A stretch of DNA of 40,816 nt from Isurus oxyrinchus (lineage: Eukaryota), in assembly GCA_026770705.1 (NCBI GenBank), contig JANJGN010003745.1, positions 1-40,816 on the forward strand, read 5' to 3'. Positions 21,001 through 39,000 of the stretch are shown one piece after another. Each line of letters begins with the position of its first letter. Position 1 is the stretch's first letter. Position numbers: made by a program.

Positions 21001-24000
21001 GAAAGTAAGGGGAATTTTAATTGAGGTGACCAAATTTATGAAAATTTCCTTAGAAAGTACATGAGGAGAAACCTTTTCTTCTGGCAGGAGGGTCGATAAA
21101 CAGATGGTATCGATTCAAGTTAATCATTCCGGGGCGGGCGGGGACGAGGGGTGGGGGGGTGGGGGGGGGTGGGGTGGGGGCGGGGTGGCGGGATTAATGA
21201 TTTGTTTCAAGGCGAGTTATTGTGATCTTGAAAGCCTTCCTGAAAGAATGATGGTAGCAGATACAATATTAAGCAATTGGATAAATGTTTCAAAATGAAA
21301 CATGCAGGTCTACAGAAAAAGAAAATAGCCTCGCGTTTATTGGATAACTCCTGCAGGCTTCAAGCACATTTACGCTTAACCAAATGACCTCTTTATGTGC
21401 TGTGTTATCAATTAATCCTACAAACCACAGTCAATTCTCACTCCGGTGTAAGCTGTACAGTGGAGCACTTTCACCATACACACACTGGTGGTTGGAGGAG
21501 AAGGCTCATCATAAGATCCTTATGTGAAGCAAGGGATGGGCAATAAATGCCGATCTTGCCACCATCGCCCATAACTGGGCAATGGCTAGAACAACACTGG
21601 GAAAAGCAGCTGCTCCCTTATGGCAATCATCGTGTGATTTCTTCCTCAGTGTTTCTTATTCACCCTTCCCTTCCTTATTTGTGTCTCTTCCGTCTTTTTC
21701 AGTCCTGTTATTCTCTCTCCGAGTTTCTCTGGTTCGCTATTTTCCTCCTGCAACATGAAGAATGTACAGTTGTTCTTTAAATGACCTCATTATTTTCTCT
21801 CCTGACCAAGAGGTCTGAGGAGGGGAGGGAGGGGCGAATTGCCAAACACAAACTCCATCCCGAATAGTTCCCCCCAGCCTCCAAACATTGTCCCCTCCTC
21901 CTTCCATCTACTGAGTGATGCCATTAGACGGCGTAGGAGGAAGTAGAGGAACTATATTTGGCCAGTCAGCACTCGTGTCAAAATGTGGTGACCGAGTTAA
22001 CTCATTCGCTACTTCTTATTGGAAAAGAATTACAGAAGAATTACAAAAGCCCCCGCCCCTTACTCCCCTTCCGTTAAAGCTCTCTGGAGAACTGTTTCTT
22101 AATGTAACAGATTGCAACAGTAAATATATCTGCTTTTCGAAGAGATTGTTGCTCAGGATATAATATGGCTTATGCCACATCGTCATCTGATTTTTTTGTG
22201 GCTGATGTTCAGTAGGTGCAGCCAGATCATTTTATCCGTTTGCAGTTATGTGATGTTAATAGACTTTTAAACTCAGTATTGCATTCGTTTTTCGTTACGT
22301 TTTATTTCAGGTTTGATTCAGGCAGATTCTATGTCCCAACCTCAGACCTCACTGCATGTTACTGAAGGAGACAGCAAGAAAATAGACTGTAGCTACACAA
22401 CAAATCATAGTAATCCCGGCCTATACTGGCACAGACAGCACACGAATCAGGTTCCGTGTTTTATTTTGTATCGAGATAGAAGCAGTAAAAGAGATGCAGA
22501 TTTTACCAAAGGGAAATCCGAGGCGGGTCAGACTAACGAAGGAAAGAAGTTTCCTCTAACGATCACTTGAGTGGAAATCCAGGACACCGCCGCAACACAC
22601 TGGTTTAAAACTCATCTGTCGCTGTAAAAAAACCCGCAGTGATGTAGAACTACCAGCTCAAAGAAACCCACCCTTTGTGGGTAAGTGCTATCCGCGGCTC
22701 AGTTTAACTGTTCCATCTCACAACTCTGCTTCTCTATCAGAAATGTGTTCAGGCCCCACTCTAGAGGCGTGAGCACATAACTCAGGCTGACACTTCTCCT
22801 GCCAGTATGAAGGGAGTGCTGCAATGTCCGTGGTGGCATTTTTCGGATGAGCTATTAAATGGAAATTCTGCCTCTCACGCACTCCCGCCCTCCTCCCCGA
22901 GGAGGACCTTAAACACCCCACCACTTATTGCACAAAAGAGCTGGTCAAATCTCCCGTGCATTTAAACCTCAAACGATATCAGTGAAACAAATGATCACAC
23001 TGCTCTTTGTGGGAGCTTGCTATGCATAATTTGACCATTTCCTACATTACCATAGTGACTGCAATTCCAATTTACTTAATTCCTACTACGGAGCAGTCTG
23101 GATGGACTGGGCCGTCCTTTGATTTCTGTAATTGTTGATGGAAATAGTAAATTAATTATAGCAACTTGTGGGCCTGTCCACATCTTTTTCTGTTTTTCAC
23201 CCAACACTGGTACAAATGGTGTATGTAACTCGACTTGGCCTCAGGACTGGCCTTTGCGGCGCTGCGTAAGCAAATGGGATATTCTGTGCACCAATCCATG
23301 AACAGTTATTGAGCGCAGCCCCTCAAAAGGCTCTCTACTCCCACACTAAGAATATTGGACTGGATCTAAAACAGCTCGCCTTCACTTTTCTGATAATTTG
23401 ACTTATTAATCTGCTCTCCTCCATCTTCCCTTTATCTATATCTGAGACAACAGGGTTTTGATGACCTAGTTTATTTTTTGAGCTGAAAAACAAAAACCGC
23501 AGGATGGCAGTTATACCAGTCAGAAAAAAAAAATCCACAGTGAAATATATGCATTCCAGCGAATTCTTCTGGCGGTTTGTAAACTTGAGCAAATGTTTCT
23601 ACCAAGAGATTGTTAGGAAATAGGGAACATGGCAGCATTAATCTCAATATTTTCAGTTATTATCATTTTTCAAACCATATGTGTGCTAGCTCCATGTGAG
23701 AGTTGGAGAAGTTTTGTAAAGCGGGGAGAACAGAATAAAATAGGTCAATATTCCTGGAAATATTGCATCACATCATAATGTAGTCACAATGTAATACAAG
23801 TCAACATCTGAAAGTGAGCAACATCAGCAAGTCCACGCGTTCCTAAGTTATCTGAGCGACAAAGAGTTCTTAGACTTCTCTAATTGATCTCTGCTTTATT
23901 AAATTGTTTTCATTATTTTTCATCACCATTGTTGGACCATGGCACTGTAGTGAAGTTCACGGCAATGCGAGTACATAATTGCCACTTTATCTTAGCAGTT

Positions 24001-36000: not shown

Positions 36001-39000
36001 TGGAGTCACTTACCGGCTATGACAGTCAACATCGTACCGGATCCATCCACAGAATCATATTTCCACCACAGTAACACGGCTCTCAGTCTCCCCGGCACAA
36101 GAACCACCGACAACTCAACCTGGCAGGAAATCATCACCAGACAGTAGAAACTGCCATATATTCAGCGGATTGAAAAAATAAACAATATTCAATGTTTCAA
36201 AATGTCTGCCGGCTCACACTGTGCTTTGTGAGGCCCTGAGCGCTGAGTAACTGGTCCAGGGAACGAGATGTTCGCTTCATATAAACCGAGACAAATATCA
36301 AAGAAAGATAATGGAATGGTGGAAATTACAATAAAACGTAATCAGATTCCAGCGATGATAACATCAACCCGACAATTCACTATCTGGGCCCGGAGAATAT
36401 ATATTTTAATTGTACAGAGCTATTTGTTCAGGCCTTTTCCTCTGTGATTAACCAATGTTGTATCTGTACTGAGCTTTACAGTAATAGTTGGCGGTGTCTT
36501 CAACTCTCACGTCCCGAATTTCCAGTGAAAATGTCTTTCCTGCTTTATTCACCGACACAACAAATCTCTCCCCGCTGGAGATCCGCTCCCACTCTGTCCC
36601 GGTCTGGGTTTGTTTGAAGAAATGTCCATTTTGTAAATAATAATAACCATAATAAACACAGGTGATGGTGAGAGACTGACACTCCTTCCTGGTCACCGCT
36701 GCTGGGGTGTGTGTCACTGACTGACTGAAAGAGCCTGGAAATTAAACAGAGAGAGTGTAATGGACAATCAGAGCCGAACCACGGAGCGGGGTTAAACCCG
36801 CAGACATTGTCTGTAATTGGGATATACTCAAGCAGCTTTATATTAAACCCACACAATGTCGGTTTGTTTGATCGGTACTCACGGGGTATAGAGACACACA
36901 AGGTGAAAACAAGGAGGATTCCCATCGCTCTGCTGCCTAGAGCTGGGGGTTTATGTGACGGGGAGCTGGAGACTGCAGCCCTGGACTGCCCTGGGAGACC
37001 GGACTTCAGGGCTGGACTGAAACACCTTAGGGGATCGAGTTGATTTACAAAGGGCAGCTTAGCTGAGATCATTGATGGGCCGCACGGTTCTCGGGTCGCT
37101 GGCTAAATGTTTTGTGAATAAGAGACAGGTTTATAAAAGGAGGCTGCAATTTTCTGACTCTACATTGGGATTGTGATCCGGATGTGAAATCCCCTCCCAC
37201 AATACTCTGTTGTACAGGGCTGGGGGTAGGGAGCTTTTCTTTCTGCCAGTTGTGCTGCCGCCCTCCTTACCCCACAGTGATGAACCGGGAGGTCGGTGCA
37301 TGAGTTCGTATTGGGTGGTGTTTGTTAAAGGTGGGATGTGGGCCCAGGACATCGAGACAGTCCCTAATGAACGTACCGGACTCTTATGCCCAACCCCGGT
37401 CTCTAGCAGCTGAACTATTCCCACAATGAGGACACTGGCTGCAGCGCAGCTCGAGCTGCTTCTATTCACTGACTTCCAGCTCAGCAACGCTCCCACGAAT
37501 AACACTTGTCTTCTTATGGTGACCTGGATGTAAGAAACTAGATTGTGCTGTTCTGAGATAGATTCCAAGACTAGCAGATAATACAAAGATTGGAAACTTT
37601 GTGAATTTTGTTTGGGATAGATTTGAACTTCAGAAGGACATACAGACGTGGGTGGTTTGCCAGAAGAAGTTGTACATAAGCTATTGAAGATGGCACAGCA
37701 TGTTGAGAGAGCAGTTAATAAAGCATACAGTATCTTAGGCTTTATTAATAGGGGCATTGTGGAAAAGAGTAATGAGGTCATGTTGAACATTTGTAAGACA
37801 CTAGTTAGGTTGTTACTACTTCCTTAATAATTGACTCTAGCATTTTACAAGCGACAGATGTTACGCAGAGTGGCACAGGGTTTCCTAGGACGTGGGATGG
37901 GGGGGTGGGGGTGGGCATAATCGCAGAGTAATGGGGCCCCCCACTTAAAATAGAGATGAGGAGGAATCTATTCTCTCAGAGGGTCGTCAATCTGTGGAAT
38001 TGTTTACCAAAGAGGCTAGGTCGTTAAATATATCCAAGGTTGAGAAATACAGTAAGTAAGTGAATCATGGGTGATAGTGGAAAGACAGGAAAGTGGAGTT
38101 GAGGATTATCAGAATAGCCATGATCTCACTGAATGGCGGACCTAGACTCGATGGGCCGAATGGCCTACTTCTGCTCCTAAGTCTTATGGTCTTATGTGGT
38201 TGCCATGGATTGCAGTGCAAGCCAGTAGCTCACACATGCTGCAGCCGAGACACATCACCTCTCCTGCCATCTTTATTGAGCGAATTACATTTATTTTGAT
38301 TAATTAATTTGTATCTTCACTGAACACCCTCACTCACCAAACTTACGCCTTCACACATTGTATATTCAGGCAACAATCAATGCTGACCACTCAGTGTAAT
38401 GTGATATAAAAAGAGGTACACCCTAGTGCAGCAACTATAGTAATATCACGATATAGAATTACAACAATCGATCTTACTTACCTTTTGAGTCTCCTAGAAA
38501 TATTACTCCTAAGCAGTCGCTCTGAATTGAAGAAAATATTGCCGGCGGCATTCTGATTGCTTCCACCAGGTGGCAGCAACACCTCAGAAACGGATAATTC
38601 TTTTCAATATGTCCGAAAGTCTTTAACACTGAGGGACATTTAAACAGGCTCATCAAATTATTCGAATCGTCTCGAGCTGGCGGACTTCTGCTTCCCCTGC
38701 AGGCCGGTAGAAACAACCAATTATTGCAGCCATGTCAGAAGAAGCGGGAAACCAACTGAACTGGCACCAGGAAAGCGGGTGGGAGTGTGTTTTCTTAATG
38801 GGAATAAGGAGCAGCCAATTCTGCCCTCATTCCGTTCATGCAATCATCAAAGAGAGAGCCATTGTTCAACATGGACGTAATTAGATGGTGCTTATGAGGA
38901 TTGCCGTAGGGATTTGTGCCCTTTGAGTGTCTTCGGAAGATAATTCCTGAACAACAGTTCTCTGAACTGAAGGAAACAATGACGGGGACAATTCTGATTT

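What the first reader, a model, noticed from the sequence alone, without database searches (positions are those of the whole stretch)
22596..36446. Cluster of three or four RSS-border anomalies within 14 kb suggests germline RAG sculpting of the TCR-delta/NAR-TCR locus
Putative V-D fusion (36.4 kb), RSS duplication and YYC loss (33.0-33.1 kb) and coding-end truncation (22.6 kb) all map to heptamer borders. Germline joining is established for shark Ig clusters, but I do not know of it being documented systematically for shark TCR genes. This is an inference from co-occurrence and my best candidate for an undescribed process here.
Basis: inference. Interest (0 to 1): 0.68.

Follow-up and report, generated by a model that had tools for sequence, protein, structure and literature searches.

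The report
Shark NAR-TCR cassette with damaged V ends
A shark-type T-cell-receptor region full of dead V gene segments holds one two-domain (NAR-TCR) gene unit whose first V segment looks already fused to its D segment in the germ line, while the other two flagged defects look like ordinary pseudogene decay.

Summary
All three lesions are in the sequence at the stated coordinates. (1) A NAR-type V exon (36734-36447, minus strand) runs 25 nt past YYCKA and ends on a 12-spacer RSS. Its J has a 23-spacer RSS and no free D lies between them. (2) The leaderless supporting V (33397-33109) lacks Y-x-C, is net about 9 nt short, and is followed by a 58-bp tandem duplication of its 23-RSS (85% identity). 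(3) A conventional alpha/delta-type V (22311-22595) has a 19-nt deletion of YYC. This was mapped against an inverted paralogue at 10.7 kb, and the deletion ends 2 nt before the heptamer.

The V(D) exon is best read as a partially germline-joined VD-J unit, which would be new for a shark TCR. However, a natively D-less V-J layout fits the window equally well, and no unjoined paralogue could be fetched.

The other two lesions fit ordinary indels and a tandem duplication. Seven of eight V segments in the window are disabled, and the Vb/paralogue alignment alone holds 10 indels. No non-templated bases, signal joints or target-site duplications could be shown. A shared RAG process rests on three heterogeneous events. 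Interest is moderate to low.

The parts
36883..36925 (-). Leader exon of the NAR-type V (MGILLVFTLCVSIP plus 1 nt, then a GTGAGT donor)
   Evidence: Read from the sequence. Phase 1 joins in frame to the V exon.
36447..36734 (-). NAR-type V exon with a 3' extension (putative V-D fused exon). It has a Cys in the a-b loop (RKECQSL), no Trp in the WYRK position (HFFKQ), and YYCKA followed by 25 extra nt
   Evidence: The best solved-structure matches are shark VNAR domains (E 7.4e-17). Pfam V-set E 7.8e-7. The hallmarks are as listed in PMC1845163 (passages read).
36447..36471 (-). 25-nt extension beyond YYCKA (QYRYNIG plus TAA). It is the candidate D-derived sequence
   Evidence: It is unique in the window (1 match, itself, at up to 3 mismatches).
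36419..36446 (-). 12-spacer RSS abutting the V(D) exon: CACAGAG-12-ACAAATAGC
   Evidence: 1 heptamer and 2 nonamer mismatches. Of the 10 CAC heptamers listed in the V-J interval, it is the only one with a nonamer at 2 or fewer mismatches.
36067..36105 (-). 23-spacer RSS of the NAR J (GGTTCTTGT-23-TACTGTG on the minus strand)
   Evidence: (listed from the plus strand as CACAGTA-23-ACAAGAACC).
36014..36066 (-). NAR J segment (WKYDSVDGSGTMLTVIA plus 1 nt, then a GTAAGT donor). It is the only credible J in the window
   Evidence: Two regex matches were found; the other, at 35813-35836, has no splice donor and runs into a stop.
33109..33397 (-). Leaderless supporting V (delta-type) after a splice acceptor, in frame with the J donor. 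It has the extra Cys in CDR1 (SGVCQY) and an open reading frame, but the second canonical Cys (Y-x-C) is absent
   Evidence: Pfam V-set E 1.1e-12.
33051..33108 (-). Copy 1 of the 58-bp tandem unit: a perfect 23-RSS (33108-33070) plus 19 nt of flank
32992..33050 (-). Copy 2 of the tandem unit: CACAGTG-23-ACAAAACCT plus flank. A possible decayed third copy follows, with weak support
   Evidence: Third copy: 56-62 of 2000 shuffles, and 123 of 2718 window segments, score as high.
22172..22211 (+). Leader exon of Vb (MPHRHLIFLWLMF plus 1 nt, then a GTAGGT donor)
   Evidence: Read from the sequence.
22311..22595 (+). Vb, an alpha/delta-type V pseudogene. It has an in-frame TGA at 22568-22570 and a 19-nt deletion that removes Y-x-C
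   Evidence: Best solved-structure match is TCR delta variable 3 (E 4.5e-8). Pfam V-set.
22596..22634 (+). 23-RSS of Vb: CACACTG-23-AAAAAAACC
10667..11011 (-). V10.7, an inverted paralogue of Vb with its 23-RSS (CACAATT-23-ACAAAAACC). It has several stops and frameshifts but keeps S-F-C. It served as the reference for the Vb deletion
20479..20811 (+). Va, a V pseudogene (frameshift in FR3) with a normal YFC end and CACAGTG-23 followed by a poor nonamer. It is a context control for a normal V end
29449..29782 (+). V29.5, a V pseudogene (3 stops) that keeps FYC, with a degenerate heptamer TTCAGTG. Context control
39515..39805 (-). V39.6, a V pseudogene (1 stop) that keeps YYC but has no RSS at its 3' end

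Best explanation
The window is a pseudogene-rich stretch of a cartilaginous-fish TCR alpha/delta-type V region. It contains one complete NAR-TCR unit on the minus strand: leader, NAR V, J, intron, then a leaderless supporting V.

**The NAR V exon** is most likely a partially germline-joined VD exon. A V with a 23-RSS and a D flanked by 12-RSSs were joined in the germ line by RAG. That removed both intervening RSSs and left V-D with the D's 3' 12-RSS facing the J's 23-RSS. The unit could therefore still rearrange VD to J.
- Shown: the exon, the two RSS types, and the absence of a free D.
- Inferred: the joining event and the role of RAG.

**The unit was later disabled, or is being disabled.** A small in-frame loss of about 9 nt removed Y-x-C from the supporting V.

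**The tandem RSS** arose by ordinary head-to-tail duplication (slippage or unequal exchange). **The 19-nt loss in the unrelated Vb segment** is an ordinary deletion in an already decaying pseudogene. These three events are independent of one another and of the VD joining.
For: **NAR-TCR identity.**
- VNAR-like V, with a leader, an a-b-loop Cys and no WYRK Trp.
- The supporting V has no leader and has a CDR1 Cys. The J donor and the supporting-V acceptor are both phase 1. These match the hallmarks quoted in PMC1845163.

**VD reading.**
- The Asp-to-heptamer distance is 52 nt, against 31-32 nt in the three normal V ends.
- The exon carries a 12-RSS and the J a 23-RSS.
- No other RSS lies in 36090-36450, and there is only one J.
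- NAR-TcR V domains are described as made by VDJ rearrangement (PMC1845163, PMC5931798, passages).
- VD-J and VDD-J germline-joined Ig clusters made by RAG are documented in sharks (PMC2193156, PMC2193153, PMC5192425, passages).

**Ordinary decay for the rest.**
- 7 of 8 V segments carry stops, frameshifts or end lesions.
- The Vb/V10.7 alignment holds 10 indels and is 71% identical over 544 aligned pairs.
- The Vb deletion leaves AA before the heptamer where the paralogue has AT, and the lost 19 nt are bracketed by AT..AT in the paralogue.
- The supporting V is net 8-9 nt short and keeps a 2-nt overhang phase like Va and V10.7.
- The RSS copies are head-to-tail and 85% identical.
- In the human VH locus, 79 of 123 V segments are pseudogenes, 50 of them by truncation, and some have lost or truncated RSSs. 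No germline RAG activity is invoked there (PMC2212390, passages).
Against: - No unjoined NAR-TCR paralogue or orthologue could be fetched. The V end, the D and any trimming or P/N bases are therefore not defined.
- The same layout (V-12RSS, 23RSS-J, about 9 codons after Cys) is normal for light-chain-type V-J genes.
- The extension ends in an in-frame TAA.
- The Vb deletion ends within 2 nt of the cleavage site. That has only a 1-10% chance under a uniform null, so a RAG-related origin is not excluded.
- The left edge of the tandem array coincides with the first heptamer base in the TRF call. A slippage model does not predict this.
- The papers that describe NAR-TCR germline organisation (PMC1458790, PMC7039070, PMC7909615, PMC3222143) were not held. 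The expected RSS types of an unjoined unit are therefore recalled by analogy with IgH, not read.
Confidence: 0.5

Rival explanations
1. All three lesions are scars of one process. RAG was active in the germ line on this TCR region. It made a V-D coding joint in the NAR unit, and it made 'open-and-shut' or aberrant rejoinings at the RSS borders of the supporting V and of Vb (coding end nibbled, signal end kept).
For: - Each lesion lies at or within about 20 nt of an otherwise well-kept RSS.
- The Vb deletion ends 2 nt from the heptamer. The null probability is 0.010 for that indel and 0.098 for any of the 10 indels.
- TRF places the start of the tandem array on the first heptamer base.
- The Vb and V10.7 RSS regions are better conserved than the coding regions (86.7% over 60 nt against 76.0% over 204 nt).
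- Germline RAG remodelling, including hybrid joints with base loss and addition, is accepted for shark Ig (PMC2193153, passages).
Against: - No non-templated or P bases can be shown.
- One of the two bases left before the Vb heptamer matches the paralogue, as expected if the original coding end survived.
- The supporting V keeps 17 nt after Asp-Ser, with a plausible original coding end in the original phase.
- A 58-bp direct duplication is not a known RAG outcome. Its left edge is uncertain by about 5 nt, because the CACAG before the heptamer aligns with the ACAGA at the end of copy 2.
- No signal joint was found. The heptamer-heptamer pattern gave 9 hits, all at 3 mismatches, and the only one inspected (36217-36230) has no nonamers.
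- There are three heterogeneous events in a block where 7 of 8 V segments are dead.
Confidence: 0.12
2. Nothing here is a RAG product. The NAR V of this unit or lineage is natively D-less, with a light-chain-like V-12RSS / 23RSS-J arrangement whose V encodes most of CDR3. All the lesions are ordinary pseudogene decay.
For: - The RSS pair obeys the 12/23 rule as it stands.
- About 9 codons after the Cys is normal for V-J type genes (established knowledge of Ig light chains, recalled).
- No D and no RSS remnant lie in the interval.
- The second V of platypus TCR-mu uses V-J without D (PMC7615758, PMC3457774, passages). This shows that such units can lack D.
Against: - NAR-TcR V domains are described as products of VDJ rearrangement (PMC1845163, PMC5931798, passages).
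- The solved VNAR sequences aligned show the conserved V-encoded part ending at C-K/R-A, with the query's QYRYNIG falling in CDR3.
- A D-less state could itself descend from an older germline VD joining.
Confidence: 0.28
3. Artefact. The VD-joined configuration is a somatic rearrangement from lymphocyte DNA that entered the assembly, or the duplication and deletions are assembly errors.
For: None from the calls. It is only a general possibility when genomes are sequenced from blood.
Against: - The two RSS copies differ at 15% of positions, and the Vb deletion sits in a 71%-identical paralogue pair. Both are therefore old, not collapse or expansion errors.
- VD-only joints without J are not the usual somatic intermediate (PMC2193156, passage).
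- An assembly reflects the majority of reads.
Confidence: 0.05

Closest known systems
Partially germline-joined (VD-J, VDD-J) and fully joined Ig clusters of cartilaginous fish (Lee et al. 2000, PMC2193156; commentary PMC2193153)
   Same: A V exon runs on into CDR3-type sequence. The intervening RSSs are gone. The remaining RSS is of the type that still pairs with the J's RSS. The host group is cartilaginous fish.
   Different: This unit is in a TCR-type (NAR-TCR) unit, not an Ig cluster. No unjoined sister gene was available to show trimming or P nucleotides, which was the decisive evidence in the Ig case.
Canonical doubly rearranging NAR-TcR unit (Criscitiello et al. 2006; hallmarks read second-hand in PMC1845163)
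   Same: A leader-bearing NAR V with an a-b-loop Cys and no WYRK Trp. Its own J is spliced to a leaderless supporting delta V that has a CDR1 Cys.
   Different: There is no free D between V and J. The supporting V lacks the second canonical Cys, and its RSS is duplicated. The primary paper was not held, so its RSS types are not known to me from reading.
Marsupial TCR-mu germline-joined V (Vmu-j)
   Same: A TCR with an extra V domain and a pre-joined V exon in the germ line. [quoted passage not shown]
   Different: There the joined exon is the supporting V, it is fully joined, and it is thought to have arisen by retrotransposition. Here it would be the membrane-distal V, joined only V to D, with an RSS kept.
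Open-and-shut and hybrid joints of V(D)J recombination
   Same: They predict an intact heptamer with loss or addition on the coding side. This is roughly what Vb shows.
   Different: No added bases are demonstrable. Two coding bases remain in Vb. No RSS exchange or inverted interval is seen.
Truncated V pseudogenes of a translocon V locus (human VH locus, PMC2212390)
   Same: A high fraction of V pseudogenes. Truncations occur, some reaching or removing the RSS, while many pseudogenes keep a complete RSS.
   Different: A different species and locus. It serves only as a baseline showing that such lesions arise without germline RAG activity being invoked.

Membership tests
NAR-TCR (doubly rearranging TCR delta) unit | Membrane-distal V of NAR type with its own leader | tested here: met
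   The top solved-structure matches are VNAR domains (E 7.4e-17). The leader exon 36925-36883 was read.
NAR-TCR (doubly rearranging TCR delta) unit | [quoted passage not shown] | tested here: met
   RKECQSL and HFFKQ in the translation. The criterion is quoted from PMC1845163.
NAR-TCR (doubly rearranging TCR delta) unit | Supporting delta V without a leader, reached by splicing from the NAR J, with a Cys in CDR1 | tested here: met
   The J donor is phase 1 (36014 | GTAAGT). The acceptor at 33398/33397 gives an in-frame D-SSSIVSQ..., and CDR1 reads SGVCQY. The exons were not joined for any search.
NAR-TCR (doubly rearranging TCR delta) unit | Separate D segment between the NAR V and the NAR J (VDJ assembly) | tested here: not met
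   No RSS pair lies in 36090-36450 apart from the one abutting the V exon.
NAR-TCR (doubly rearranging TCR delta) unit | Both canonical intradomain cysteines in the supporting V | tested here: not met
   The first Cys is present (TLSC). Y-x-C is absent, and the exon ends LSDSTKSAHS.
NAR-TCR (doubly rearranging TCR delta) unit | Linkage to D-delta, J-delta and C-delta | not testable with these tools
   No C, D or further J lies in the 40.8-kb window. No eukaryotic genome collection was available.
Germline-joined (VD-J) antigen-receptor gene made by RAG | V and D coding sequence contiguous, with both intervening RSSs removed | tested here: inconclusive
   There is a 25-nt extension after YYCKA with no heptamer inside it. 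No D reference exists to compare it with.
Germline-joined (VD-J) antigen-receptor gene made by RAG | The remaining RSS is the one expected at the D's 3' side and pairs with the J's RSS by the 12/23 rule | tested here: met
   A 12-RSS at 36446-36419 and a 23-RSS at 36105-36067. That an unjoined unit would be V-23 / 12-D-12 / 23-J is an analogy with IgH recalled from memory, not read.
Germline-joined (VD-J) antigen-receptor gene made by RAG | Junction shows trimming and/or P or N bases relative to an unjoined sister gene | not testable with these tools
   No sister gene lies in the window, and none could be fetched.
Germline-joined (VD-J) antigen-receptor gene made by RAG | The configuration is present in non-lymphoid or germ-cell DNA | not testable with these tools
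   This needs wet-lab work or read-level data.
Open-and-shut / hybrid joint scar | Heptamer intact, with loss confined to the coding side and flush with the heptamer | tested here: inconclusive
   Vb: the 19-nt gap ends 2 nt before the heptamer, and the first of the two remaining bases matches the paralogue. Supporting V: the breakpoints cannot be mapped.
Open-and-shut / hybrid joint scar | Exchange of RSS types, or inversion of the interval between two segments (hybrid joint) | tested here: not met
   No second RSS or D lies in the NAR V-J interval.
RAG transposition product | An insert bounded by two outward-facing heptamers and flanked by a short target-site duplication | tested here: not met
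   The tandem copies are direct, each starting with CACAGTG and ending in non-RSS flank. No near-perfect heptamer-heptamer junction was found.
Simple tandem duplication (slippage or unequal exchange) | Head-to-tail copies of one unit in the same orientation | tested here: met
   TRF: period 58, 2.0 copies, 85% matches. Alignments.

The most novel reading that the evidence does not exclude
RAG has acted in the shark germ line on the TCR delta / NAR-TCR region and not only on Ig clusters. It produced a VD-J partially pre-joined NAR-TCR unit, which would be the first germline-joined TCR V exon outside marsupial TCR-mu. It also left open-and-shut scars (coding-end loss against an intact RSS) on neighbouring V segments. 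If so, RSS-adjacent lesions would be a measurable footprint of germline RAG activity across a translocon-type locus.
Probability: 0.12. Interest if true: 0.7.

Novelty: new member of a known kind. Interest (0 to 1): 0.35.

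Why it matters
Germline V(D)J joining by RAG is accepted for shark Ig clusters. A 2023 paper states that marsupial TCR-mu is the only TCR known with germline-joined V genes (PMC7615758, passage). A VD-joined NAR-TCR unit would extend germline RAG remodelling to a shark TCR locus. It would also give a second, independent case of pre-joining in a three-domain TCR.

The wider idea is that RSS-flush deletions are RAG scars. It would turn V pseudogene catalogues into a record of germline RAG activity. This window alone cannot support that idea.

Tried and rejected
**Not available or not held**
- No eukaryotic sequence collection was available. Genome contigs holds bacteria and archaea only. 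Cross-species and locus-wide comparison therefore stayed unchecked.
- Primary papers on NAR-TCR and IgNAR germline organisation were not held: PMC1458790, PMC7909615, PMC3222143, PMC7039070 and PMC21721. Supplements are closed. The scaffold tables of PMC12227049 may bear on where such units lie.
- A literature search on 'TAILV' returned only unrelated papers.

**Tests that found nothing**
- A retained signal joint: the heptamer-heptamer pattern gave 9 hits, all with 3 mismatches, against 2.07 expected. Only the one in the NAR V-J interval (36217-36230) was inspected, and it has no nonamers at 12 or 23 nt. The other 8 were not inspected.
- A templated origin of the 25-nt extension: it is unique in the window. 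Only short chance-level repeats were found in 35900-36800.
- A third RSS copy: support is weak. It scored 18, a score reached by 56-62 of 2000 shuffles and by 123 of 2718 window segments.
- The window-wide count of RSS-like sites is not clearly above chance: 18 hits against 9.1 ± 2.9, with a maximum of 19, in 100 Markov simulations. Several hits are the same heptamer counted with different spacers.
- Self-comparison found no paralogue for the supporting V, the NAR V or V39.6.

**Uninformative**
- A bacterial promoter/terminator scan was irrelevant to this eukaryotic locus.
- The PDB search with the supporting V returned generic antibody V domains and did not help place it.
The exons were searched one by one.

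Full report
**What the window is**

The window has 40816 bases and no N. It is not human-like. I compared each V with the others by six-frame comparison. I also ran a profile built from six of the window's V translations; those six match it by construction. Together these give eight V-type segments:

| Segment | Strand | Coordinates | Note |
|---|---|---|---|
| V10.7 | − | 11001-10717 | independent profile hit, E 5.5e-8 |
| Va | + | 20479-20772 | |
| Vb | + | 22311-22595 | |
| FR3 fragment | + | 28263-28340 | decayed, weak (E 0.14) |
| V29.5 | + | 29449-29733 | |
| supporting V | − | 33397-33109 | leaderless |
| NAR-type V | − | 36734-36447 | |
| V39.6 | − | 39805-39515 | |

- Pfam V-set matched 4 of the 4 translations sent. 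One of them, Va, scored 24.2 bits, below the curated cut-off of 26.
- The best solved-structure matches of the NAR-type V are shark VNAR domains (E 7.4e-17).
- Vb's best match is a TCR delta V, followed by TCR alpha chains (E 4.5e-8).
- Seven of the eight segments carry disabling lesions: stops, frameshifts, a lost Cys or a lost RSS. Only the NAR V exon is open, apart from a TAA just before its heptamer.
- The segments lie in mixed orientation.

**The NAR-TCR unit (minus strand)**

- A leader (36925-36883, phase 1) precedes the V exon.
- The V exon has a Cys in the a-b loop and lacks the Trp of WYRK.
- One J follows (36066-36014...GSGTMLTVIA, phase-1 donor). It is the only credible J in the window. 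One search gave 2 regex matches, and the other has no donor.
- After 2.6 kb comes a splice acceptor and a leaderless V, in frame, with a Cys in CDR1.
- These are the hallmarks of NAR-TcR V and its supporting delta V as quoted in PMC1845163 (passages).
Each exon was searched on its own.

**Lesion 1: the putative V-D fusion**

- After YYCKA the exon continues for 25 nt (36471-36447). It then meets CACAGAG-12-ACAAATAGC.
- The J carries GGTTCTTGT-23-TACTGTG.
- From the conserved FR3 Asp codon to the heptamer is 52 nt. In the three V segments with normal ends it is 32, 32 and 31 nt.
- Ten CAC heptamers lie in the V-J interval. Only the one abutting the V exon has a nonamer with 2 or fewer mismatches, so there is no free D.
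- The extension is unique in the window.
- NAR-TcR V domains are described as products of VDJ rearrangement (PMC1845163, PMC5931798, passages).
- VD-J and VDD-J pre-joined Ig clusters made by RAG in germ cells are documented for sharks (PMC2193156, PMC2193153, PMC5192425, passages).
- A VD-J partially joined unit fits all of this.
- The caveat is serious. V-12RSS / 23RSS-J with about nine codons after the Cys is also the normal light-chain-type layout (recalled). I had no unjoined sister gene to define the V end, the D or the junctional bases.
- My expectation that an unjoined unit would be V-23 / 12-D-12 / 23-J is an analogy with IgH recalled from memory. The papers that would say so were not held.

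**Lesion 2: the supporting V**

- The exon is open throughout but ends LQLSDSTKSAHS, with no Y-x-C.
- Its Asp-to-heptamer distance is 23 nt, a net deficit of 8-9 nt. It keeps the same 2-nt overhang before the heptamer as Va and V10.7.
- A single in-frame internal loss of about 9 nt that leaves the original coding end in place would give exactly this. So would heavy nibbling plus about 10 added bases. The window offers no paralogue to tell the two apart.

**Lesion 2, continued: the RSS duplication**

- The RSS is perfect. It is the only perfect consensus RSS in the window, and 0 of 100 shuffles gave one.
- The RSS and 19 nt of flank are repeated head to tail. TRF reports 32996-33108, period 58, 2.0 copies, 85% matches. 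The local score was 70, reached by 0 of 2000 shuffles.
- TRF starts the array on the first heptamer base. However, the CACAG before the heptamer aligns with the ACAGA that ends copy 2, so the edge is uncertain by about 5 nt.
- A decayed third copy is possible but weak.
- Direct tandem duplication is what slippage or unequal exchange produces. It is not a known RAG product.
- The copies are direct and not bounded by opposed heptamers, which argues against transposition.

**Lesion 3: Vb**

- Vb has an inverted paralogue, V10.7, with 71% identity over 544 aligned pairs.
- In that alignment Vb lacks 19 nt that encode S-F-C-V-L-R in the paralogue.
- The gap ends 2 nt before the heptamer. The two remaining bases are AA, where the paralogue has AT.
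- In the paralogue the lost stretch is bracketed by AT..AT. This is the pattern of a microhomology deletion.
- The same alignment holds 10 indels (1, 1, 1, 4, 1, 5, 3, 1, 19 and 1 nt).
- Placing the indels at random, a boundary falls within 2 columns of the heptamer border with these probabilities:

| Indels considered | Probability |
|---|---|
| all 10 | 0.098 |
| the 4 of 3 nt or more | 0.040 |
| the 19-nt indel alone | 0.010 |

- This is suggestive, but the class was chosen after seeing the data.
- Vb also has an in-frame TGA.
- The RSS region of the pair is better conserved than the coding part (86.7% over 60 nt against 76.0% over 204 nt). Both segments therefore probably stayed functional for some time after duplicating.

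**Weighing the interpretation**

- Only lesion 1 has the form of a known RAG product.
- Lesions 2 and 3 have no positive RAG signature:
  - no demonstrable added bases;
  - no hybrid-joint RSS exchange;
  - no signal joint. The heptamer-heptamer pattern gave 9 hits, all at 3 mismatches, against 2.07 expected. I inspected only the one at 36217-36230, and it has no nonamers.
- The lesions sit among heavily decayed V segments.
- In the human VH locus, where nobody invokes germline RAG activity, 79 of 123 V segments are pseudogenes. Fifty of them are truncated, some have lost or cut RSSs, and 28 pseudogenes keep a complete RSS (PMC2212390, passages).
- Co-occurrence of three different lesions within 14 kb of such a block is therefore weak evidence for one process.
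- The flush position of the Vb deletion and the position of the array edge keep the RAG reading alive at low probability.

**Novelty**

- Germline RAG remodelling of antigen-receptor loci is an established idea (PMC2193153).
- My searches were: 'NAR-TCR, shark, germline' (18 papers), 'germline-joined, shark, TCR' (13), 'NARTCR' (2) and 'NAR-TCR' from 2015 (18). I read passages from nine of the papers found.
- None of those passages describes a germline-joined NAR-TCR segment.
- PMC7615758 (2023) states that marsupial TCR-mu is the only TCR known with germline-joined V genes.
- The key primary NAR-TCR papers and all supplements were not readable, so prior description cannot be excluded.
- If the VD reading holds, this is a new member of a known kind.

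**Verdict**

- Best explanation, at 0.5 confidence: a VD-J pre-joined NAR-TCR unit, since disabled, plus ordinary decay elsewhere.
- Interest is 0.35.

Noticed in passing
window 498-4451: A large satellite array. The unit is 54 bp (two 27-bp half-units), with about 73 copies at 70% matches. Several isolated CACAGTG hits fall inside it.
   Followed up: no
window 5696-6712 (-): An uninterrupted 339-codon reading frame encoding a rhodopsin-family 7TM receptor (Pfam 7tm_1, E 8.2e-18). It is an apparently intronless GPCR gene sitting among the V segments.
   Followed up: partly
window 8819-9385 (-): A 189-codon open frame with no Pfam match. From memory it resembles the C-terminal part of a CR1/L2-type LINE ORF2. 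This was not tested.
   Followed up: no
window 39515-39805 (-), and 40776-40812 (-): V39.6 keeps YYC but has no RSS at its 3' end. The nearest heptamer-like CACAGCG lies about 77 nt downstream with no nonamer. A hydrophobic leader-like exon (MKSVVLACMWF) lies about 950 bp upstream, which implies an unusually long leader intron. This is another RSS-border anomaly, just outside the finding's range.
   Followed up: partly
window 29734-29782 (+): V29.5 has a normal FYC end. Its heptamer reads TTCAGTG, so the first two bases, which are critical for cleavage, are changed exactly at the border.
   Followed up: no
window 10647-11011 (-) and 22311-22655 (+): Vb and V10.7 are inverted paralogues. Their RSS and the first about 20 nt downstream are better conserved (86.7%) than the V coding part (76.0%). 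The V segments in the window lie in blocks of opposite orientation: − at 10.7 kb, + at 20-30 kb, − at 33-40 kb.
   Followed up: partly
window 36217-36230: Two adjacent heptamer-like words (CACAAAG, then CACAGTG, on the minus strand) lie in the NAR V-J interval with no nonamer at 12 or 23 nt on either side. Their origin is unknown.
   Followed up: partly
window 36059-36068 and 36317-36326: A perfect 10-nt inverted repeat between the 5' end of the NAR J (with the last two heptamer bases) and a site in the V-J interval. By my own rough estimate (about 0.4 such pairs expected by chance in 900 bp; no shuffle was run), it is at chance level for a region of this size.
   Followed up: no
window 14368-14436; 25495-25690; 21136-21192: A perfect 36-bp tandem duplication, a 69-bp repeat of 2.8 copies (83% matches), and a G-rich tract of about 55 nt.
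   Followed up: no
window 25722-26034 / 30273-30585; 12001-12373 / 17265-17624; 23697-23848 / 24214-24055; 30864-31034 / 35620-35450: Dispersed repeat pairs (74-85% identity, two of them inverted). They are presumably interspersed elements.
   Followed up: no
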